DNA of 64,000 nt from an uncultured Thermococci archaeon (GTDB lineage: Archaea; Methanobacteriota_B; Thermococci; Methanofastidiosales; B48-G16), in contig CAZQQT010000001.1 of NCBI GenBank assembly GCA_964595645.1, positions 128,001 to 192,000 on the forward strand. Direction: 5' to 3'. The translations under genes and the position numbers were made by a program. Below, in pieces: positions 9,248 through 19,210 of this stretch. The notes beneath the pieces are model-generated. The model did not search any database. It saw nothing but the letters and a program-made list of their open reading frames with translations, and was not told the origin of the DNA. How positions within the stretch are numbered: position 1 is the first letter of the stretch; every line of letters starts with the position of its first letter.

Positions 9248-9850
9248 TTATTTGTGTGACCAGTTGTCAGGCTTATCGCTACTGGGAGATAACCCCAAGA
9301 TATCACCTGTTGTGTCTACTCCCAGTCCAAGGACTGTCCTGTTCGCATAAGCAAAATACGCCACGACCTGGTTTACCTCGAGGATCTCGCCGTCGTCATA
9401 TCCCTGGGATCGCATCTCATCGATGAGACTCTTATCTATATGCGCTGGATCCTCTGTCAGTGCCTTTGTATATTTTAGCAGTGCAATCTCCTTTTGTTCG
9501 AATGCATCCCCAAATGATTCAGTTTCCAGTGCCTCTCGTATCGCCTTCGCCTTCTCGTCGTCGTTAAGAAGCCGTTTCAGCCCATTAAAATGGTGCTCCA
9601 CACAGTACTGGCAGCCATTTAACATACTCGTGTAGACGCCGAGTGTTTCGAGCAGCCACTTTGGTATGGTGTTTTCGTAATGGTGCAGCACATTTTTGTA
9701 CATTTTCATATGCGCTTCGAGTGTGTGGGGGCGCAGTCCGTGGATCGTGAGAATGTTGTCCAGGTAGTTATCCGGTCCTTTTATTTTATCGTAAATTTTT
9801 TTGAGCTTCCCTTCAGCTTTTTCATACGAAATATGTCGTATCCATGGCAT
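9248..9850 (-). CDS. AhpD/CMD-family peroxidase-related enzyme
   Basis: NGCQYCVEHH (CxxC), AYFAYANR; likely start MPWI at 9850. Confidence 0.85.
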   Translation of the reverse strand: MPWIRHISYEKAEGKLKKIYDKIKGPDNYLDNILTIHGLRPHTLEAHMKMYKNVLHHYENTIPKWLLETLGVYTSMLNGCQYCVEHHFNGLKRLLNDDEKAKAIREALETESFGDAFEQKEIALLKYTKALTEDPAHIDKSLIDEMRSQGYDDGEILEVNQVVAYFAYANRTVLGLGVDTTGDILGLSPSSDKPDNWSHK

Positions 9851-9896
9851 AGTTTTTCCTCTCTTTATTTTTATAATCTCCAATACTTGATCTTCC

Positions 9897-11654
9897 CTAC
9901 GCTTCTTTATAGGACTTTCGCAGTTCTTCGGCTTCTTCCTCAATGTCCTTCTCGATCTGGCTGAACTTCTCCTCGACCTCGTCCTCCGGCACGATCTTCA
10001 TTCGCGCGATCTCTTCTTTCACCTTCATACCTGCGACATCTTCGAACTCGATAGCATCGATAATCTCGGAGAGTTTTTCGTAGAACTTGATACAGATCTT
10101 CAGCATCCGGACCTGCTTTTTCTGAGAACAGTAGGTATCGATATCGTGGAACGCATTCTGTTGGAGGAAGTCCTCCCGCAACATCTTCGCAGCCTCCAAT
10201 GTGAGCCGCTGTTTCTTGGGCAGTGCGTCTGGTCCAACGAGCTGTACGATTTCCTTCAGTTCTTCTTCTTTCTGCAGGATCTGCATGGCTCTTTTCCGCA
10301 ACGCAGCCCAATCCTCCTTTACAGTCTCATTCCACCAATCTTCTACCTCACCGAGGTACAACGAGTACGAGGTCAGCCAATCTATTGCAGGAAAATGTCG
10401 TCTATCCTTCAGCTCTCTGTCCAGGGCCCAGAAGACCTTTGTCACGCGCAGTGTGTTCTGCGTGACAGGCTCCGAGAAATCTGAACCCGGCGGCGAGACA
10501 GCGCCTATCACAGAGAGGGATCCCTCCTTCTCGTTGAGCGTAACGACTCTTCCGGCCCGTTCGTAGAATTCAGCCAGTTTCGATGCAAGATACGCAGGAT
10601 ATCCTTCCTCTCCTGGCATTTCCTCCAGTCTTCCTGAGATCTCTCGCAGTGCTTCAGCCCATCGTGAGGTAGAGTCTGCCATCAACGCGACGCTGTACCC
10701 CATATCTCTGTAGTACTCTGCTATGGTGATCCCTGTATAGATAGACGCTTCTCGTGCTGCCACAGGCATATTTGAGGTATTTGCAATCAGCACCGTCCGC
10801 TCCATCAGTGGTTTTCCTGTTTGTGGGTCCTCCAGCTCCGGGAACTCTCTGAGCACCTCGGTCATCTCATTTCCTCGCTCACCGCATCCCACGTAGATGA
10901 TGACCTCAGCGTCCGCCCATTTCGCGAGCTGATGCTGGATAACCGTTTTTCCAGTTCCAAAACCACCGGGAATTGCAGCTGTTCCACCCTTTGCCACAGG
11001 GAAGAAGGTATCCAGTACCCGCTGTCCTGTAAGCAGTGGAATAGACGGATCAGATTTTTCTGTGACGGGTCGCGGCTGTCGTACCGGCCACTTATGACTC
11101 ATGGCAATTTCTTTCCCATTTACCGTGGCTACCGGGTCATTGACGGTGAACTCACCTTCCTCTATATCATCCAGAGTCCCCTCTCCAAAATTCGGGGGAA
11201 CGAGAATACTGTGTTTGATCAGTTCTGTTTCATCCACGTAGCCGATGACGTCGCCCGAGCTCACTGTATCTCCTTTCTCCTTTGTAGGGATAAAGTGCCA
11301 TTTCTTTTTCTCTGGAATTGCATTCACCTTCACACCCCGCTCGATGAAGGCACCAACCTCTTCCCGTATTAGATTTAACGGCCTCTGCACACCATCGTAT
11401 ATTCCCGAGGTCAGTCCGGGCCCCAGTATAACAGATAGTGGTCTTCCTGTCGGTATTATTTTCTCCCCGGGTGTTAATCCTGTTGTATCCTCATAAACCT
11501 GAATAATCGCTTTGTCTTTTTCTAATTCGATGATCTCCCCCATGAGCTCCTCTTCTCCCACCTTCACGAGTTCATACATTTTACATCCTTTCATACCTTT
11601 CGCTTCAGCAACGGGTCCACTTATTCGTATTATCTTTCCTTCCATACATCTCAC
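9897..11654 (-). CDS. atpA: A/V-type ATP synthase subunit A
   Basis: P-loop [28 protein letters not shown]. Confidence 0.98.
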
Positions 11655-11923
11655 CTCAGTTCTATGCCGATAGATCGCTTGACTAGTGAAGCTATCGGAT
11701 CTTCCTTTCGTATGCTTCCCTTTTTATCCGGTATTTCAACGATGATTCTTCCTTTTTCTTCAAGTACGTCCAGATCTTCACGCAGTACATCTGCCACCTT
11801 TTCAGTTACGATAATGAAATTTGAGTCTATGTCGTTGATATCCATTCCTTTCTTATATACGTATCCCTTTACACCGACAATGCCGAACGCATTCACGGTA
11901 TCTTCATCCCCTATGACAATCAT
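11651..11923 (-). CDS. atpF: A/V-type ATP synthase subunit F
   Basis: [23 protein letters not shown]; operon position. Confidence 0.9.
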
Positions 11924-12918
11924 ACTATCACGTCCTCTACTATCTCTTCACACTCTTCCTTCTTCGCCGCGTATACACCCAGGGCATCATTCACTTCCTT
12001 CTCCCGCAGATGGATGTAGTACAGCGCCTTCCCTGCAGCATACGGGTGGAGCGATGCCATACGTTTCACCCGTTTCATGAAGTATTTTTTCAGCTCTTTT
12101 TCAAATATGAATAATGATCCGGTGTCTACATATTTCTCTCGCAAATCAGAGAGAAACTTATACTTTGTGTCTGTGAGGAGATCCAGTACTCCCTCTACAT
12201 CTCGGGCCTCAGCAAGGTTTTTGAGTTTCCACTGCTGGAGTTCGTATCCAATGGGGATGACGTAGTCAAGTACATCCTCAACGCCATACTTTTTTAACCG
12301 GAGGATCGTGAGAAGATTCCTGATATCTACCTCAGTTTTTACGTACTGCTTGAGGAGGGTTGCGTTTTTTGTATCTGTTTTTTGGGCGGCGGCAAGCAGT
12401 TCTTTGTAATAGACAAAGTCTATGTCTCGCTCTATCTCCGCTGGAGGTCTTTCGAAGGAGAGGTTCTCGTAGACTGTCCCTTCGAGTTTTGAGCTGTACT
12501 CTGAGAGGGGCGTTTCTCGAAGTTTCCGTATCATTTCCCGGGTAAAAATCCCGTAGGGTTCCGGCTCACTGCCCCTCACCATCTTTTTGAGGACCTCTTT
12601 TTCATACCGAAGGTCGAGTTTCCGAAAGAATACCTCCACACTATCAGGCGATGATCCTGTAACCTTTTTAAAGTCTTTCTTATAATCTTTATCAAATTTC
12701 GTCATAAAATTCTCAAGCTCGTAAATATCCATTTCTTTTATTTTTGATGAATCCTGTACCTTGCTCTTTAATCCAGAGATTTTCGCGTTAAAAAATCCAA
12801 AAGAAGCGATATCAAGGATTTCTTTGAAAATTCCAATAAATATGATGATGCCTATGGATACGGCAACTGCTATCAGTACGACGAATACCGTTATGTCCAT
12901 TGTTACATCCATTGTCAT
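11920..12918 (-). CDS. atpC: A/V-type ATP synthase subunit C (d) with N-terminal TM helix
   Basis: NAKI, EVDIRNLLTILRLK, REKEVN motifs; operon position. Confidence 0.85.
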   Translation of the reverse strand: MTMDVTMDITVFVVLIAVAVSIGIIIFIGIFKEILDIASFGFFNAKISGLKSKVQDSSKIKEMDIYELENFMTKFDKDYKKDFKKVTGSSPDSVEVFFRKLDLRYEKEVLKKMVRGSEPEPYGIFTREMIRKLRETPLSEYSSKLEGTVYENLSFERPPAEIERDIDFVYYKELLAAAQKTDTKNATLLKQYVKTEVDIRNLLTILRLKKYGVEDVLDYVIPIGYELQQWKLKNLAEARDVEGVLDLLTDTKYKFLSDLREKYVDTGSLFIFEKELKKYFMKRVKRMASLHPYAAGKALYYIHLREKEVNDALGVYAAKKEECEEIVEDVIV

Positions 12919-13472
12919 TCACTCTCAAACAATATCTGAGCTATTCCGACCCTCAGATCTTTCTTTTTCCTTTCCATAAGCTTTTTAATTCGATTATCTA
13001 CTGTGAGGCTTCCATCTTTTTTTCTTACAATAACACCAGGTTCCTCAATACTCTCTTCTGCGAGTTCGTATTCTTCGACGAACTTCCTGTCCTCCTCTCT
13101 GACTATTACTTCATACTCTTCTATCTCGGCGTCCTCGATTAATTTTTTCAGGAGATCCTCATACACGGACTTGTCCTTCACAATTCGGTCACTTACCTCA
13201 GATATTACCTTTGAGATGAGCGCATCTTTTTTGTTCAGTATCTTACTTTTCGTTTCAAGATTTTTTGAAGAAAGTATCCGCTGTTTTTCCAGTTCAGCTT
13301 CTTTTTTTCCTTGTTTTATTATTTCTTCTTTTTTTCCTTCTCCTTTCTCTTTCGCTTTTTTGAGCAGTTTTTTCCGTTCTTTCTCTATTTTTTTGTTTAT
13401 TTCTTCGATTTCTTTTTCTGCATCCTTTTCTATTTTATTGAGTATTTTTTCGAGGCTCATTTTCTCACCCAA
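12915..13472 (-). CDS. atpE: A/V-type ATP synthase subunit E
   Basis: Coiled-coil N-terminus, GVIVRKKDGSLTVDN, IAQILF; start may be MSLEK at 13460. Confidence 0.9.
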   Translation of the reverse strand: MGEKMSLEKILNKIEKDAEKEIEEINKKIEKERKKLLKKAKEKGEGKKEEIIKQGKKEAELEKQRILSSKNLETKSKILNKKDALISKVISEVSDRIVKDKSVYEDLLKKLIEDAEIEEYEVIVREEDRKFVEEYELAEESIEEPGVIVRKKDGSLTVDNRIKKLMERKKKDLRVGIAQILFESE

Positions 13473-16365
13473 ATAGATTCAATCCGTAGAGGATCAGTAT
13501 CGCGATAAGGAGTCCAAAGATAGCAAAGGTCTCCGACATCACGGAGAATATCATACCCTTGCTGAAGGCTTCACTGTTTTTCATTGTGGCTGTAATGCTC
13601 CCTCCTGCAGTAATCCCTTGTCCGATGGCGGAAACTCCAGCGATTCCGGCGGCAAGTCCTGTACCAACAATGGCAATACCGGTGACATACTCTAGTTCGA
13701 TAGCTCCCGAAAGCAGACCTGTGAAATATAATATCAAAATTGCAACCAACAATCCGTAGATCGCCTGTGTCTCGGGTAACACCGAGAACACCATCCCCTT
13801 GCCAAACATTTCATCCTTCTCGGTGACAGATGATACTCCGGATCCAGCTGCAATTCCTTGACCGATACCAGAAAGACCTGCCACACCAATAGAAAGCCCT
13901 GCGCCAACACATGCGATCCCTACACTCAATGGTATTTCTTTGACGACACCCGACAATAGTCCTGTGAAATAGAGGATAAGTATTGCAATGAGCAATCCAT
14001 AGATAGCTTGGGTCTCAGGCAAGACTGAGAATACCATTCCTTTTCCAAACATCTCGTCCTTCTCGGTGACAGATGATACTCCAGAGCTGGCTGCGATCCC
14101 CTGCCCAATGGCAGACAATCCAGCGACGCCGATGGAAAGCCCTGCGCCAACACATGCGATCCCTACGGCTAGTGGAATTTCTTTAATCGTTCCTGATAAT
14201 AACCCTGTAAAATAGAGGATAAGTATTGCAATGAGCAATCCATAGATAGCTTGGGTCTCAGGCAAGACTGAGAATACCATTCCTTTTCCAAACATCTCGT
14301 CCTTCTCGGTGACAGATGATACTCCAGAGCTGGCTGCGATCCCCTGCCCGATACCAGAGAGTCCAGCGACGCCGATGGAAAGCCCTGCGCCAACACATGC
14401 GATCCCTACGGCTAGTGGAATTTCTTTAATCGTTCCTGATAATAACCCTGTAAAATAGAGGATAAGTATTGCAATGAGCAATCCATAGATAGCTTGGGTC
14501 TCAGGCAAGACTGAGAATACCATTCCTTTTCCAAACATCTCGTCCTTCTCGGTGACAGATGATACTCCAGAGCTGGCTGCGATCCCCTGCCCAATGGCAG
14601 ACAATCCAGCGACGCCGATGGAAAGCCCTGCGCCAACACATGCGATCCCTACACTCAATGGTATTTCTTTGACGACACCCGACAATAGTCCTGTGAAGTA
14701 TAATACGAGTATCGCGATTAATAGTCCGTAGATCGCCTGTGTCTCGGGTAACACCGAGAACACCATCCCCTTGCCAAACATTTCATCCTTCTCGGTGACA
14801 GATGATACTCCGGATCCAGCTGCAATTCCTTGACCGATACCAGAAAGACCTGCCACACCAATAGAAAGCCCTGCGCCAACACATGCGATCCCTACACTCA
14901 ATGGTATTTCTTTGACGACACCCGACAATAGTCCTGTGAAATAGAGGATAAGTATTGCAATGAGCAATCCATAGATAGCTTGGGTCTCAGGCAAGACTGA
15001 GAATACCATTCCTTTTCCAAACATCTCGTCCTTCTCGGTGACAGATGATACTCCAGAGCTGGCTGCGATCCCCTGCCCGATACCAGAGAGTCCAGCGACG
15101 CCGATGGAAAGACCTGCGCCGATACACGCAACCCCAATACTCAACGGTAGTTTTTCGACCCTTCCTGAAAGCAGACCTGTGAAATATAGTATCAAAATTG
15201 CAATCAATAGTCCGTAGATCGCCTGTGTCTCGGGTAACACCGAGAACACCATCCCCTTGCCAAACATTTCATCCTTCTCGGTGACAGATGCAACACCCGA
15301 TCCAGCTGCAATGCCCTGCCCAATGGCAGACAATCCAGCGACGCCGATGGAAAGCCCTGCGCCTACGCATGCGATCCCGATAGAGAGGGGAAGCTCTTCA
15401 ATTGTTCCTGATAATAACCCTGTAAAATAGAGGATAAGTATTGCAATGAGCAATCCATAGATAGCTTGGGTCTCAGGCAAGACTGAGAATACCATTCCTT
15501 TTCCAAACATCTCGTCCTTCTCGGTGACAGATGATACTCCAGAGCTGGCTGCGATCCCCTGCCCAATGGCAGACAATCCAGCGACGCCGATGGAAAGACC
15601 TGCGCCGATACACGCAACCCCAATACTCAACGGTAGTTTTTCGACCCTTCCTGAAAGCAGACCTGTGAAATATAGTATCAAAATTGCAATCAATAGTCCG
15701 TAGATCGCCTGTGTCTCGGGTAACACCGAGAACACCATCCCCTTGCCAAACATTTCATCCTTCTCGGTGACACTGGCAATGGCAGATGAAGCTGCGGCGC
15801 CTTGCCCCATGGCCGAGAGTTTTGTCACACCAACGGCGATGCCTGCACCGATACAGCCGAGACCTACAGGAACATTCTCTATTAACTCTCCGCTCATGAT
15901 ACCTGAGAAGTATAAGATGAGGATGGCAACCAACAATCCGTAAATCGCTTGTGTCTCGGGGAGGATAGAGAACACCATGCTCTTTCCTAATGTATCTTCT
16001 CTTTCAGAGACGGAAAGGATTCCGGATCCAGCTGCAATGCCCTGCCCAATGGCAGAGAATCCAGCAAATCCCACAGCAATTCCTGCGCCAAGACATGCAA
16101 GTCCAGTGGCAAGAGGGATTTCACTGGCACCTGAGACCACGCCTGTTTGGACGATTATCAGGACAGCGGTTAGCAATCCATAGATCCCCTGAGTTTGCGG
16201 GAGTGCTTGGAACATTAGCGCTCTGGAGAACTTTGACGAGTCTTCAGCGACAATTCGTGCACCCATACTTCCTGAAATTCCAGTACCGATACCCGAACCG
16301 AGTCCTGCTCCGCCTACGGCAATTCCCGCCCCTATCGCACAGAGTGCGGCTCCTTCAGTGATCAC
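13465..16365 (-). CDS. atpK: A-type ATP synthase subunit c/K with 12 fused helical hairpins (966 aa)
   Basis: 12 copies of an ~81-aa proteolipid hairpin; GQG and PETQAIYG in hairpins 2-11; located between atpI and atpE. Confidence 0.95.
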   Translation of the reverse strand: MITEGAALCAIGAGIAVGGAGLGSGIGTGISGSMGARIVAEDSSKFSRALMFQALPQTQGIYGLLTAVLIIVQTGVVSGASEIPLATGLACLGAGIAVGFAGFSAIGQGIAAGSGILSVSEREDTLGKSMVFSILPETQAIYGLLVAILILYFSGIMSGELIENVPVGLGCIGAGIAVGVTKLSAMGQGAAASSAIASVTEKDEMFGKGMVFSVLPETQAIYGLLIAILILYFTGLLSGRVEKLPLSIGVACIGAGLSIGVAGLSAIGQGIAASSGVSSVTEKDEMFGKGMVFSVLPETQAIYGLLIAILILYFTGLLSGTIEELPLSIGIACVGAGLSIGVAGLSAIGQGIAAGSGVASVTEKDEMFGKGMVFSVLPETQAIYGLLIAILILYFTGLLSGRVEKLPLSIGVACIGAGLSIGVAGLSGIGQGIAASSGVSSVTEKDEMFGKGMVFSVLPETQAIYGLLIAILILYFTGLLSGVVKEIPLSVGIACVGAGLSIGVAGLSGIGQGIAAGSGVSSVTEKDEMFGKGMVFSVLPETQAIYGLLIAILVLYFTGLLSGVVKEIPLSVGIACVGAGLSIGVAGLSAIGQGIAASSGVSSVTEKDEMFGKGMVFSVLPETQAIYGLLIAILILYFTGLLSGTIKEIPLAVGIACVGAGLSIGVAGLSGIGQGIAASSGVSSVTEKDEMFGKGMVFSVLPETQAIYGLLIAILILYFTGLLSGTIKEIPLAVGIACVGAGLSIGVAGLSAIGQGIAASSGVSSVTEKDEMFGKGMVFSVLPETQAIYGLLIAILILYFTGLLSGVVKEIPLSVGIACVGAGLSIGVAGLSGIGQGIAAGSGVSSVTEKDEMFGKGMVFSVLPETQAIYGLLVAILILYFTGLLSGAIELEYVTGIAIVGTGLAAGIAGVSAIGQGITAGGSITATMKNSEAFSKGMIFSVMSETFAIFGLLIAILILYGLNLFG
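13700..15780. repeat. 243-bp intragenic tandem repeat (c-hairpins 3-11)
   Basis: Anchor block recurs at 13754, 13997, 14240, 14483, 14726, 14969, 15212, 15455, 15698, exactly 243 bp apart. Confidence 0.95.
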
Positions 16366-18236
16366 TCAACCACCTCAGTGAGCTTTCTTTCCATTTTAAA
16401 CGGTGTGAATTCTTTTCCTCCGCTTTCGTAGAACTTCGAGAAAAACTCCACGTAATGAAGCCTGAGGGAGTGGACAAAGGATCCAAGCGCTTCCAAAACG
16501 AAGTTGAAGAGTTGACCACCGATAAAGACAATAACTGCAAGGATGATTCCCATGATGGGGAATCCGTATACCATTTTGGCGACAATATTTACCGTCATGG
16601 CAATCCCCGATGTTGCGAGTGCTAGAGCCAAAATTCGTGCATAGGAGAGCCAATCTCCCAAAAATCCTGTGAACTCGAAAAATGAGAGACCTTTTTTATC
16701 ATACGCTATCATTAGCGCACCGATGCCAGCACATACAATTCCAACAGTGTTCACTGTATCGGAGATAGTGAACCACTGGAAGAACTTTCCGATAAGGATT
16801 CCTCCACCTATCTGTGCGAAGTACCAGCTCACGTTCTCTAGGATAGCAGATTTGTATTTTTTGTCCATGATGTTGTTGGCCATTCCCAGTGTAATTCCAA
16901 TATTTAAATGGACAATACCGAGTATCAACGCCAGTTTTAAGATAGTCATCGGGTCGTTTATGGGATTTACCAGAGCGGGGAGCTGATACCCACCGTAATC
17001 GAGAATATCTCCAAAATAACTCCCCATCGCGATACCAGCGATCATTGTTGCTATACCGCAGGTGAGGAGGATGTAGGAAAAGTCTCGCATTCCTTTACTC
17101 TTTTTTCCTGCACCCTTGTAGAGAAAGAACGCGATTACTGTTTGTATGAATCCGTAGAAAAAATCTCCAAACATGATTGCATAAAAAAGTATATAAATCG
17201 GGGCGACGATGAATGTAGGATCGATCTCCGAGTACTTTGGTGTTCCGAACATATTTACGAGCATTTCGTATGGGCGTATTGGCGCAGGATTGGAGAGAGT
17301 AACAGGAGGATCCTCATTTTCCACTGTCTCTAGATGACAGTATCCCTCTGTAGTAGTTTCCACTTCTTCACTAAGCTTTTTTACTTCTTTTTCAGGTACA
17401 TACCCTGTAATGGCAATTGTTTTCTCAGTTCTCCCAAATTTTGTTGGGATATCTGCTCTCTCTTTTTCTATTTCCAAAATTTCTTGATATGCCTTAAAAG
17501 GGACTTCTTTCTTCTCCTTTGTTTCTTTTATTTCTTTTTCACATTCTTCTATTTCTTCCTCATGATTTTTTATTTCTTTTTCTATTCTTTTGAGGTTTTC
17601 GTTTGGTGTTCCTGTTTTATCCAGTTTTATCACACTTATTTTACCCTGCACCATATTCATTTTATCGGTAGGGACAATTACAAGAGAATACTCTCCTTTT
17701 TTATACACTTCTATTTCATCATCTTCTATTTCTTCTTTGAGTTTTCCTATAGCGATATAGATGAATTTTCCTCTCCCTAAATATTTTAGATCTATATCGA
17801 ACTTTATTTCTGAGAGCAGTGCATGTTCACTCTGAAGATACTCTATTTTTTCCCTCTTTTTCCTTATTTTTTCAGAAATATTTTCTATCCGATCGTAGAT
17901 TTTCTCGATCTCGTTGGAACGCTCTTCTAAAAATGTGTCGAACTCTGGGAATTTCCGTGTTTCCTTCTCTTTGTAACGTAAATACTCGTTTAAAAGAGAG
18001 GTTACCTGTTCTTTTTTTGTTTTTTCTTCTTTTATTAAAGAAAAAGTTTCAAATATCCTTTCTATTTTTGTTAAAAGAGAGTTTATTTCTCGTGAATGTT
18101 CTAGAGGAGCATCTTTCCCCATTTCAGCGGTACTGATTTGCATTACGCCCTTTTTGTGGAGATATTCTATTATTTTTTGCCCATATTCTTCTGTAGAAAT
18201 GATAAGAATTTTATTCATCCTCTGGGGCAGGAACAT
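16362..18236 (-). CDS. atpI: A/V-type ATP synthase subunit a/I
   Basis: PKYSEIDPT, MFGD, LSYARILAL (conserved Arg), HSLRLHYVEFFSKFY. Confidence 0.97.
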   Translation of the reverse strand: MFLPQRMNKILIISTEEYGQKIIEYLHKKGVMQISTAEMGKDAPLEHSREINSLLTKIERIFETFSLIKEEKTKKEQVTSLLNEYLRYKEKETRKFPEFDTFLEERSNEIEKIYDRIENISEKIRKKREKIEYLQSEHALLSEIKFDIDLKYLGRGKFIYIAIGKLKEEIEDDEIEVYKKGEYSLVIVPTDKMNMVQGKISVIKLDKTGTPNENLKRIEKEIKNHEEEIEECEKEIKETKEKKEVPFKAYQEILEIEKERADIPTKFGRTEKTIAITGYVPEKEVKKLSEEVETTTEGYCHLETVENEDPPVTLSNPAPIRPYEMLVNMFGTPKYSEIDPTFIVAPIYILFYAIMFGDFFYGFIQTVIAFFLYKGAGKKSKGMRDFSYILLTCGIATMIAGIAMGSYFGDILDYGGYQLPALVNPINDPMTILKLALILGIVHLNIGITLGMANNIMDKKYKSAILENVSWYFAQIGGGILIGKFFQWFTISDTVNTVGIVCAGIGALMIAYDKKGLSFFEFTGFLGDWLSYARILALALATSGIAMTVNIVAKMVYGFPIMGIILAVIVFIGGQLFNFVLEALGSFVHSLRLHYVEFFSKFYESGGKEFTPFKMERKLTEVVE

Positions 18237-18556: not shown

Positions 18557-19210
18557 TCACTCCATGAACATCTTTTTTACAAGGGGTACAACTCGTGCCT
18601 TTGCGAGAACCATGATTCTATCTCCTTCTTTGAGTTCTGTATTCCCTTTTGGGATGGTGAGATCACCTTCCTTGTTGTACACTGCCACAATCAAGAAATC
18701 CCGAGGAGATATGTTTTTAAGTTTTTTCCCTACTACCGGTGAGTTTTCACTTATCCTCATTTCGAGTATTTCGGCCTGACCCTCTGCGAGGACAGTAAGA
18801 TCGATCACATCGGGTTTCATTATCAACTTTTCTATATGAATTGCGGTAGTAAGCTCTGGAGAGACCACAGCACTCACACCGAGTTTTTCGAAGACCTCCC
18901 TGTTTTCGGGATTGGAAGTCCGTGCCACAGCTACAGGAACATCATAATCCTTTGCAAGAAGACATGCCATAAGGTTTATTTCATCCCGTTTTGTCAGGCC
19001 TACTAGTGCGTAGGCATCCTCAATGTTTGCCTCCTCCAATGCCTTTATCGTTGTACCGTCCTCGTTAAGAACAAGCGCATCTACCTCATTTGCAATGAAG
19101 TTAGCCCTCTCTTTATCCTTTTCTATCACGGTGACTTCATGTCCTGCATTTACGAGGAGTTTAGAGAGGTTGAATCCGATTCGCCCTCCTCCAACGATAA
19201 TTACATACAT
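18557..19210 (-). CDS. trkA: Trk potassium uptake NAD-binding subunit
   Basis: GGGRIG Rossmann motif, RCK N and C domains. Confidence 0.9.
   Translation of the reverse strand: MYVIIVGGGRIGFNLSKLLVNAGHEVTVIEKDKERANFIANEVDALVLNEDGTTIKALEEANIEDAYALVGLTKRDEINLMACLLAKDYDVPVAVARTSNPENREVFEKLGVSAVVSPELTTAIHIEKLIMKPDVIDLTVLAEGQAEILEMRISENSPVVGKKLKNISPRDFLIVAVYNKEGDLTIPKGNTELKEGDRIMVLAKARVVPLVKKMFME

What the first reader, a model, noticed from the sequence alone, without database searches (positions are those of the whole stretch)
13465..16365. 11 Na+ sites and one ion-blind seam: a V-type c subunit expanded into a synthesis-capable rotor
Seen: hairpins 2-11 carry GQG in the inner helix and PETQAIY in the outer helix. 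Hairpin 1 has GTG and PQTQGIY (no Gln, no Glu; CAA at 16195-16197). Hairpin 12 has GQG and SETFAIF (Glu kept, Gln/Tyr lost). Known: in Enterococcus hirae NtpK the Na+ site takes T/Q/Y from one hairpin and Q/E from the next, and two-hairpin V-type c subunits have exactly these two terminal half-types. Inference: each of the 11 internal junctions is a complete site, while the 12-to-1 seam lacks ligands on both sides. That gives 11 Na+ per 3 ATP (about 3.7), versus 6 per 3 for a V-type ring of equal size. The middle repeats look like hybrid donor+acceptor hairpins amplified between the two ancestral halves.
Basis: partly seen in the sequence, partly recalled or inferred. Interest (0 to 1): 0.82.

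Follow-up and report, generated by a model that had tools for sequence, protein, structure and literature searches.

The report
Single-chain 12-hairpin ATP synthase rotor
An uncultured archaeon from microbial mats encodes the membrane rotor of its only rotary ATP synthase as one protein of 12 fused hairpins, predicted to carry 11 sodium sites plus one built-in blank; this is a new variant of a rotor design so far published only for Methanopyrus.

Summary
[quoted passage not shown] It is the only c-type gene in a 99.96%-complete genome. Hairpin 1 has GTG and PQTQGIY (CAA at 16195-16197). Hairpins 2-11 have GQG and PETQAIY. Hairpin 12 has GQG and SETFAIF.

Across 91 multi-hairpin relatives, a hairpin lacking the acceptor residues always follows a hairpin lacking the donor residues (0 exceptions in 681 junctions). 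That supports 11 live sites and one dead N/C-terminal junction.

The two end hairpins are orthologues of the two halves of the NtpK-type two-hairpin K found in sister families of the same order.

Two parts of the reading do not hold. V-type c rings do synthesise ATP (PMC9171764), and the natural comparator is a 10-site ring (3.3 ions/ATP), not 6 sites. The "hybrid" descent of the middle hairpins is also unresolved.

The exact copy number is uncertain: the array holds a 354-nt exact repeat and no public contig spans it. The congeneric genome also has 12 hairpins.

The design is known from Methanopyrus kandleri (13 hairpins) and from the Acetobacterium woodii hybrid ring. This scan found single-chain rotors before on other DNA (Asgard, 15 hairpins). 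Verdict: new variant of a known kind.

The parts
13465..16365 (-). [quoted passage not shown] GTG start overlaps the stop of subunit I by 4 nt; a GAGGTG lies 5 nt upstream.
   Evidence: all 12 PF00137 matches in the genome lie in this gene
16126..16365 (-). Hairpin 1 (aa 1-80). The acceptor is dead: Thr28 (16282-16284) stands for the inner Gln and Gln57 (CAA, 16195-16197) stands for Glu. The donors L54, T58, Q59 and Y62 are kept.
   Evidence: it groups with hairpin 1 of two-hairpin K
13702..16125 (-). Hairpins 2-11 (aa 81-888), each with GQG and PETQAIY, so each is both acceptor and donor. Units 2 and 3 have one-to-one orthologues in the congener; units 4-11 turn over.
13468..13701 (-). Hairpin 12 (aa 889-966). 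The acceptor is intact (Q916, E945). The donor residues are lost in SETFAIF (13516-13536): Gln to Phe947 and Tyr to Phe950.
   Evidence: NtpK MVETYAIL; clade of last hairpins, support 95
14725..15078 (-). 354-nt exact repeat, copy 1 (from mid unit 6 to mid unit 7).
   Evidence: Logan unitigs end at 15078
13753..14106 (-). 354-nt exact repeat, copy 2 (from mid unit 10 to mid unit 11).
   Evidence: Logan unitigs end at 14106
16362..18236 (-). Subunit I (a, stator), 624 aa.
   Evidence: PF01496
18241..18552 (-). Probable subunit H, 103 aa. It is named from its position and coiled-coil composition only; it has no Pfam match.
12915..13472 (-). Subunit E, 185 aa; its start overlaps the end of K.
   Evidence: PF01991
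11920..12918 (-). Subunit C (d), 332 aa, with a hydrophobic N-terminal helix.
   Evidence: PF01992
11651..11923 (-). Subunit F, 90 aa.
   Evidence: PF01990
9897..11654 (-). Catalytic subunit A, 585 aa. Subunits B and D lie on another contig.

Best explanation
The gene encodes the complete membrane rotor of the organism's single A-type (A1AO) ATP synthase as one polypeptide. Twelve helical hairpins close into one ring, comparable in hairpin number to the Thermus L12 ring.

Each ion site lies between two neighbouring hairpins. Hairpin n gives the Leu backbone carbonyl, Thr and Gln, plus the Tyr that holds the glutamate. Hairpin n+1 gives the inner-helix Gln and the outer-helix Glu.

Junctions 1|2 to 11|12 have all of these, which is the full NtpK-type Na+ set. 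Junction 12|1, where the two chain ends meet, has neither the acceptor (Thr28, Gln57) nor the donors (Phe947, Phe950). One turn therefore carries 11 ions for 3 ATP (3.67), and the stator passes one uncharged position, as in the Acetobacterium woodii hybrid ring.

The end hairpins descend from the two halves of an NtpK-type two-hairpin K. The inner units are old, strongly constrained copies that are reshuffled by unequal recombination or gene conversion.

Shown: gene anatomy, motifs, homology of the ends, co-variation across junctions, and that this is the sole c gene. Inferred: a single-chain ring, Na+ as the coupling ion, the exact number 12, and working in the direction of ATP synthesis.
For: - The ORF is intact with 12 PF00137 domains. 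There is no other c-type domain in a 99.96%-complete genome, and there is one A, one B and one D subunit.
- NtpK alignment (E 1.5e-17): LPQTQGIY of hairpin 1 aligns with NtpK L61-P-G63-T64-Q65-G-L-Y68. Q108 aligns with Q110, E137 with E139, and MSETFAIF with MVETYAIL. The published ligands are E139, Q110, T64, Q65 and the L61 carbonyl.
- Of 681 junctions in 91 multi-hairpin K proteins, 608 are intact on both sides, 52 are defective on both sides, and none has an intact donor followed by a defective acceptor. At least 7 different residue combinations occur.
- The congeneric genome G001 has 12 hairpins too, although its inner units have no one-to-one orthologues.
- Complete proteins of this clade have 6 (43 proteins), 12 (15) or 13 (16) hairpins, rarely 7-9, and never 10, 11 or 14. 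Six-hairpin forms also occur fused as 6+6.
- Units 4-11 differ by 729 synonymous against 183 non-synonymous codon changes. dN is 0.02-0.09 while dS runs up to saturation.
- The AlphaFold2 best model has pLDDT 91.4 and pTM 0.90 with 24 TM helices. The best solved folds are 2bl2_A and 4bem_J.
- The genome has an Mrp cluster and an Mbh/Mbx-like membrane arm with NuoD/NuoB-like subunits, but no McrA and no Rnf. A Na+-linked respiratory module is therefore on hand.
Against: - No read or contig spans the array. Logan assemblies break it into unitigs of 76-312 nt, and it holds a 354-nt exact repeat.
- Public assemblies of proteins with identical termini carry 13, 12 or 8 hairpins. Close relatives are assembled with 9 and 7 hairpins. 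So 12, and hence 11, could be off.
- Four of the five AlphaFold models were poor (mean pLDDT 74 to 34). I could not read coordinates, so ring closure is not shown.
- Ion specificity rests on a motif only.
- There is no expression data (0 RNA runs).
Confidence: 0.68

Rival explanations
1. This is the same kind of rotor, but the assembled copy number is wrong. The real gene has some other number of hairpins (for example 10-14), so the site count is not 11.
For: The array holds a 354-nt exact repeat, and several units are 93-95% identical. No public contig bridges the array. Identical-termini proteins are assembled with 13/12/8 and 13/12 hairpins. Relatives at 79-81% identity are assembled with 9 and 7 hairpins, keeping just one of each distinct unit type, as a collapsed assembly would.
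Against: The independent assembly of the congener also gives 12. The units fall into sub-families about 25% apart in DNA, which assemble well. The contig runs more than 190 kb through the array. Counts of 12 and 13 dominate complete proteins. Summed unitig depth is roughly that expected for the assembled length, but this is only a crude estimate.
Confidence: 0.22
2. The chain does not make a ring on its own. Two or more chains, or a partial arc plus something else, form a larger ring, so ions per turn would be 22 or some other number.
For: V-type rings with 20 hairpins exist: the E. hirae ratio of 3.3 implies 10 two-hairpin subunits. Ring closure could not be read from the model.
Against: Hairpin counts cluster at 12-13 and at 6 (half of 12), with 6+6 fusions. 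This is the only c gene in the genome. pTM is 0.90 for the single chain. A monomeric ring was deduced for the 13-hairpin Methanopyrus protein.
Confidence: 0.06
3. The architecture is as described, but the physiological coupling ion is H+ (or both ions), or the enzyme mainly runs backwards as an ATP-driven ion pump in a fermenting cell.
For: Specificity is inferred from a motif. The genome lacks methanogenesis and Rnf.
Against: All NtpK ligands are present at 11 junctions. Mrp and Mbh/Mbx-like Na+-linked modules are present, as in Thermococcales, which make ATP this way (established knowledge, not tested here).
Confidence: 0.2

Closest known systems
Methanopyrus kandleri A-ATP synthase subunit K (1021 aa, 13 hairpins; Lolkema & Boekema 2003, cited in PMC2359735 and bioRxiv 10.64898/2026.10.01.756066)
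   Same: A whole rotor in one gene of an A-type operon. It has the PETQAIY/GQG Na+ motif, and a monomeric ring was deduced from the sequence.
   Different: Methanopyrus keeps the full ligand set in all 13 hairpins, the first and last included, which gives 13 sites (4.3 per ATP). Here there are 12 hairpins, NtpK-type ends and one dead junction. Identity is only about 50%, and the first hairpin belongs to another hairpin type.
Enterococcus hirae NtpK (PDB 2BL2), the two-hairpin V-type Na+ c subunit
   Same: It is the best solved match by sequence (E 1.5e-17) and by fold. Hairpin 1 here corresponds to NtpK hairpin 1 (no Glu; T, Q and Y donors). Hairpin 12 corresponds to NtpK hairpin 2 (Gln plus Glu; ETYAIL against ETFAIF). 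The inter-hairpin site geometry is the same.
   Different: NtpK has 2 hairpins and 1 site per chain, and its ratio is quoted as 3.3 ions per ATP. Here ten hairpins that both donate and accept lie between the two halves, giving 11 sites on 12 hairpins.
Acetobacterium woodii F/V-hybrid Na+ c-ring (PDB 4BEM; 9 one-hairpin c plus 1 two-hairpin c1)
   Same: It is a nearly full ring with one hairpin that carries no ion, and it still makes ATP. 4bem_J is the second-best fold match.
   Different: It is F-type and hetero-oligomeric. The blank comes from a separate subunit, not from the ends of a single chain. From memory, the blank position also holds Gln; I could not read that paper here.
Two-hairpin K subunits of sister families in the same order (loci L008, L010, L012, L018, L020)
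   Same: They have the same operon place and the same end types: LPQTQVIY or LPGTQGIY in hairpin 1, and MSEIAAVF or MVETYAIL in hairpin 2.
   Different: They have no inner hairpins and one site per chain.

Membership tests
ATP synthase subunit c/K (Pfam PF00137, ATP-synt_C) | Helical hairpin domain that matches the profile above the curated cut-off | tested here: met
   12 matches, 610 bits in all against a cut-off of 24; each domain scores 50-67 bits.
ATP synthase subunit c/K (Pfam PF00137, ATP-synt_C) | Gene lies in a rotary ATPase operon | tested here: met
   The gene order is H-I-K-E-C-F-A on the - strand, with overlapping stops and starts. B and D lie on contig 2.
ATP synthase subunit c/K (Pfam PF00137, ATP-synt_C) | Ion-binding carboxylate in the outer helix | tested here: met
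   Glu is present in 11 of 12 hairpins; hairpin 1 has Gln57.
Single-chain (monomeric) rotor of the Methanopyrus kandleri kind | About a ring's worth of hairpins (12 or more) in one ORF, which is also the only c gene of the genome | tested here: met
   12 hairpins; no other PF00137 match in the 99.96%-complete genome.
Single-chain (monomeric) rotor of the Methanopyrus kandleri kind | Every hairpin keeps the complete Na+ ligand set | tested here: not met
   Hairpin 1 lacks the inner Gln and the Glu. Hairpin 12 lacks the donor Gln and Tyr.
Single-chain (monomeric) rotor of the Methanopyrus kandleri kind | One chain closes into the ring | not testable with these tools
   The AlphaFold2 pTM of 0.90 and the 6/12/13 distribution of hairpin numbers agree with this, but no coordinates or native mass are available.
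V-type two-hairpin c subunit (NtpK type) | Four TM helices with one site per chain | tested here: not met
   24 helices and 11 predicted sites.
V-type two-hairpin c subunit (NtpK type) | The first hairpin has no Glu but has the L-P-x-T-Q-x-x-Y donors. The last hairpin has the inner Gln and the Glu but has lost the donors. | tested here: met
   Residue-by-residue alignment to 2bl2_A. First and last hairpins group with their counterparts when the trait columns are removed.
Na+-coupled c rings | Full ligand set: Glu, inner Gln, Thr/Ser, a backbone carbonyl and a second Gln, as in NtpK | tested here: met
   All are present at junctions 1|2 to 11|12. Actual Na+ binding was not tested.

The most novel reading that the evidence does not exclude
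In this archaeal family the number of live ion sites is set genetically at constant ring size. Paired knock-outs of donor residues in hairpin n and acceptor residues in hairpin n+1 are gained, lost and duplicated by recombination within the array. Congeneric species with 12 hairpins would then run at 11 sites (this genome, 3.67 ions per ATP) or 9 sites (G001, 3.0). That would be a hard-wired, evolvable gear ratio. The unique seam would also give a natural angular marker on an otherwise symmetric rotor.
Probability: 0.33. Interest if true: 0.72.

Novelty: new variant of a known kind. Interest (0 to 1): 0.55.

Why it matters
- A rotor whose stoichiometry is written in one gene removes the usual uncertainty about ring size. 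The ion-to-ATP ratio can be read from the sequence and changed by design.
- The single blank junction breaks the ring's symmetry at a known place. That would let cryo-EM and single-molecule rotation work assign absolute rotor angles, and show how the stator arginine passes a position with no carboxylate.
- The co-loss of donor and acceptor residues across junctions is evolutionary evidence for the inter-hairpin site geometry so far known from crystal structures.
- The papers I could search name Methanopyrus alone as a whole-rotor K protein. The protein search found about 30 complete 12- or 13-hairpin relatives. By their source labels these come from Methanopyrus, Nanoarchaeota/DPANN, unclassified Euryarchaeota and PKD-fused Thermoplasmata-like forms. 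It also found 15-hairpin Asgard forms.

Tried and rejected
- Read support for the copy number: only Logan contigs were on hand, and they break inside the array. A summed-depth estimate was too crude to use as evidence.
- RNA evidence: no RNA run holds the stretch.
- Naming the organism: record titles say only 'Methanobacteriota archaeon' and 'Methanomicrobia archaeon'. The Atlas look-up of subunit A gave bacterial V-type clusters and no taxonomy.
- The paper on the A. woodii ring structure (PMC4228694) is not held, so the Gln at its blank site is from memory.
- Literature searches for multi-hairpin c subunits outside Methanopyrus found nothing relevant.
- Foldseek of the whole model against PDB gave only two-hairpin chains (TM by target 0.75-0.85). 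It cannot test ring closure.
- The first hairpin tree showed the inner units clustering by species, which I first read as recent amplification. I rejected that after finding saturated synonymous divergence between unit sub-families.
- Five rows of that tree were misregistered by my hairpin finder and sit on a long branch. They do not affect the groupings I used.
Full report
**What is there.** Window 13465-16365 on the - strand is one open frame of 966 codons. It starts with a GTG that overlaps the stop of the upstream gene by four bases, behind a GAGGTG, and it runs eight bases into the next gene. Pfam finds twelve ATP-synt_C domains in it (E 4.8e-188). It names the neighbours as subunits I, E, C, F and A of a V/A-type ATPase. 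Subunits B and D lie together on another contig. A search of the whole genome (1.97 Mb, 14 contigs, 99.96% complete) finds twelve PF00137 matches, all inside this gene. This protein is therefore the only rotor subunit of the only rotary ATPase.

**The observation.** A script located the motifs:
- Hairpin 1 has G-T-G (aa 27-29) and PQTQGIY (aa 56-62).
- Hairpins 2-11 each have G-Q-G and PETQAIY.
- Hairpin 12 has G-Q-G and SETFAIF (aa 944-950).

The Gln57 codon is CAA at 16195-16197. Contigs from two microbial-mat runs cover hairpin 1 without any difference. A 95-99% relative from a different study has changes nearby (16204, 16228) but none in that codon.

The printed alignment shows:
- A-L-P-Q-T-Q-G-I-Y of hairpin 1 lies on NtpK L-L-P-G-T-Q-G-L-Y, that is L61, G63, T64, Q65 and Y68.
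- Gln108 lies on Q110, and Glu137 on E139.
- NtpK's own second hairpin reads M-V-E-T-Y-A-I-L, against M-S-E-T-F-A-I-F in hairpin 12.

The published ligands of the NtpK sodium ion are E139, Q110, T64, Q65 and the carbonyl of L61 (PMC2359735). A site thus takes the Leu carbonyl, Thr and Gln (and the Tyr that holds the Glu) from the outer helix of one hairpin. It takes the inner Gln and the Glu from the next hairpin. By that rule junctions 1|2 to 11|12 are complete. Junction 12|1 lacks the acceptors (Thr28, Gln57) and the donors (Phe947, Phe950).

**Evidence from relatives.** A search of 5.8 billion proteins gave 112 relatives of 531-1691 aa. I parsed 91 of them into hairpins. Of 681 junctions inside chains:
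- 608 are intact on both sides.
- 52 are defective on both sides.
- 21 have a changed donor only, mostly the Gln-to-Arg change of Methanopyrus.
- None has an intact donor followed by a defective acceptor.

The five junctions my parser skipped hold ordinary PETQAIY hairpins. The double defects come in at least seven residue combinations in different lineages. Examples are PETQ..M|PQTQ in DPANN-labelled proteins, PETH..S|PQTQ in this family, and SETH..F followed by an inner Leu in another group. Related sequences are not independent, so the Fisher p-value is not a true probability. The pattern is nonetheless what the inter-hairpin site model predicts.

The same holds for the ring-closing junction. 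Methanopyrus proteins are intact at both ends. All complete others start with x-PQTQ..Y and end with ETY..F, ETF..F or ETF..L.

**Is one chain one ring?** This cannot be shown here, but four things point that way.
1. Complete proteins of this clade have 6 (43 proteins), 12 (15) or 13 (16) hairpins, with a few at 7-9 and none at 10, 11 or 14. Three of the 12-hairpin proteins (P0008, P0019, P0020) are fused 6+6 forms with an internal seam.
2. The congeneric genome G001 has 967 aa and 12 hairpins. Only units 1, 2, 3 and 12 have one-to-one orthologues (72-77% DNA identity), while units 4-11 have been reshuffled.
3. There is no other c gene.
4. The best AlphaFold2 model has pLDDT 91.4 and pTM 0.90 with 24 long helices. 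The other four models were poor, and I could not inspect coordinates.

**Age and constraint of the units.** Units 4-11 fall into sub-families about 25% apart in DNA but about 90% alike in protein. Over 28 pairs there are 729 synonymous and 183 non-synonymous codon differences. dN is 0.02-0.09, with dS up to saturation. The array is therefore old and every unit is under purifying selection. Patches of recent conversion exist, the largest a 354-nt exact repeat (14725-15078 and 13753-14106).

**Origin.** Sister families of the same order have a two-hairpin K of the NtpK type. One has LPQTQVIY and MSEIAAVF, another LPGTQGIY and MVETYAILG; a third family has a one-hairpin K. I built a tree of 111 hairpins with the eight motif columns removed. 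In it, first hairpins, including those of the two-hairpin proteins, are split from middle and last hairpins by a branch with full support. The last hairpins of seam-type proteins form a clade (support 95) nested among middle hairpins.

Whether the middle units are recombinant hybrids is open. Against outside references, their inner half is closer to hairpin 2 (44% against 23%) and their outer half closer to hairpin 1 (48% against 32%). Against the protein's own ends, both halves are closer to hairpin 12. The direction of change is not fixed by an unrooted tree: it could be expansion of a two-hairpin gene or reduction of a long one.

**What does not hold.** The title contrasts a V-type subunit with a 'synthesis-capable' rotor. 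A purified A1AO enzyme with a V-type c makes ATP from about 87-90 mV, a lower threshold than the F-type enzymes measured alongside it (PMC9171764). The comparator of 6 sites on 12 hairpins is hypothetical: the E. hirae enzyme is quoted at 3.3 ions per ATP and Methanopyrus at 4.3. The predicted 3.67 lies between these. The gain over the likely ancestor is small, although it is reached with a smaller ring of fixed size.

**Direction and ion.** The genome has no McrA and no Rnf. It does have an Mrp cluster, an Mbh/Mbx-like membrane arm, and NuoD- and NuoB-like subunits. This is the kind of Na+-linked module that feeds Na+ ATP synthases in Thermococcales (established knowledge, not tested here). 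Na+ coupling and net ATP synthesis are therefore likely but inferred.

**Main caveat.** No public contig bridges the array. Proteins with identical ends have been assembled with 13, 12 and 8 hairpins, and others with 13 and 12. Relatives at about 80% identity appear with 9 and 7 hairpins, holding one of each distinct unit, as collapsed assemblies would. I put about one chance in five on a different true number here.

**Comparison with the known.** The single-gene rotor is known from Methanopyrus kandleri (13 hairpins, all sites complete). A ring with one ion-free hairpin is known from A. woodii. What is new here:
- The two features occur together.
- The blank derives from the chain ends of an NtpK-type ancestor.
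- The blank is conserved in many uncultured lineages.
- Congeners with the same ring size differ in the number of live sites (11 here; 9 in G001 by the same rule).

I found no paper on these points. This scan has reported single-chain rotors before on other DNA: Asgard 15-hairpin proteins and four- to five-hairpin F-type subunits.

**Verdict.** It is a new variant of a known kind, of moderate interest.

Noticed in passing
window 11920-12918 (-); L013 5431-6411; L008 2639-3460: Subunit C (d) begins with a strongly hydrophobic stretch of about 25 residues (for example ITVFVVLIAVAVSIGIIIFIGIF). The stretch is conserved in the congener and in a sister family with a two-hairpin K. The Pfam profile matches only from residue 127. 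It may be a membrane helix that plugs or anchors in the rotor ring.
   Followed up: partly
window 9248-11654; L041 4035-6049: The ATP synthase operon is split. H-I-K-E-C-F-A ends at A, followed by a CMD-family gene, and B-D lie together on contig 2.
   Followed up: partly
P0002 = L013 1975-4878 (G001): The congener's 12-hairpin K has two internal dead junctions (PETHAIS followed by PQTQVIY), made by a recent three-unit duplication (units 6/9 are 97% identical in DNA and units 7/10 are 100% identical). That gives 9 predicted sites on the same ring size.
   Followed up: partly
P0047, P0048, P0073 and about 40 others; P0008, P0019, P0020; P0005: Thermoplasmata-labelled K subunits carry an N-terminal signal peptide and PKD-like domain, followed by 6 hairpins with the same seam. 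Some are fused 6+6, with an internal seam, and one has 12 hairpins with 11 sites. An extracellular domain on a rotating ring is odd.
   Followed up: no
P0092-P0100 (Promethearchaeota); P0108, P0113 (Gracilibacteria): Asgard K proteins of about 1140 aa have 15 hairpins, all with LAEALxIYG. CPR bacteria have 751-901-aa c proteins with 10-12 VE[SV][AV]AIYG glutamate motifs, presumably one per hairpin. These look like independent whole-rotor fusions.
   Followed up: partly
L025, L026 (sister family f4): Genomes with the two-hairpin K also hold a separate one-hairpin c-like gene (VIPETIVIFGL, like Thermus L). This suggests a second rotary ATPase or a mixed ring.
   Followed up: no
L040 (G000 contig 4, 86000-102000) and G000 C4:13472-15493: The Mbh/Mbx-like membrane arm (MnhE, G, B, 4L, antiporter subunit and NuoH-like) lies about 80 kb away from the NuoD- and NuoB-like subunits. 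The complex is encoded in two places.
   Followed up: no
window 18557-19210 (-): A TrkA-N/TrkA-C potassium-transport regulator gene lies directly upstream of the ATP synthase operon, on the same strand.
   Followed up: no
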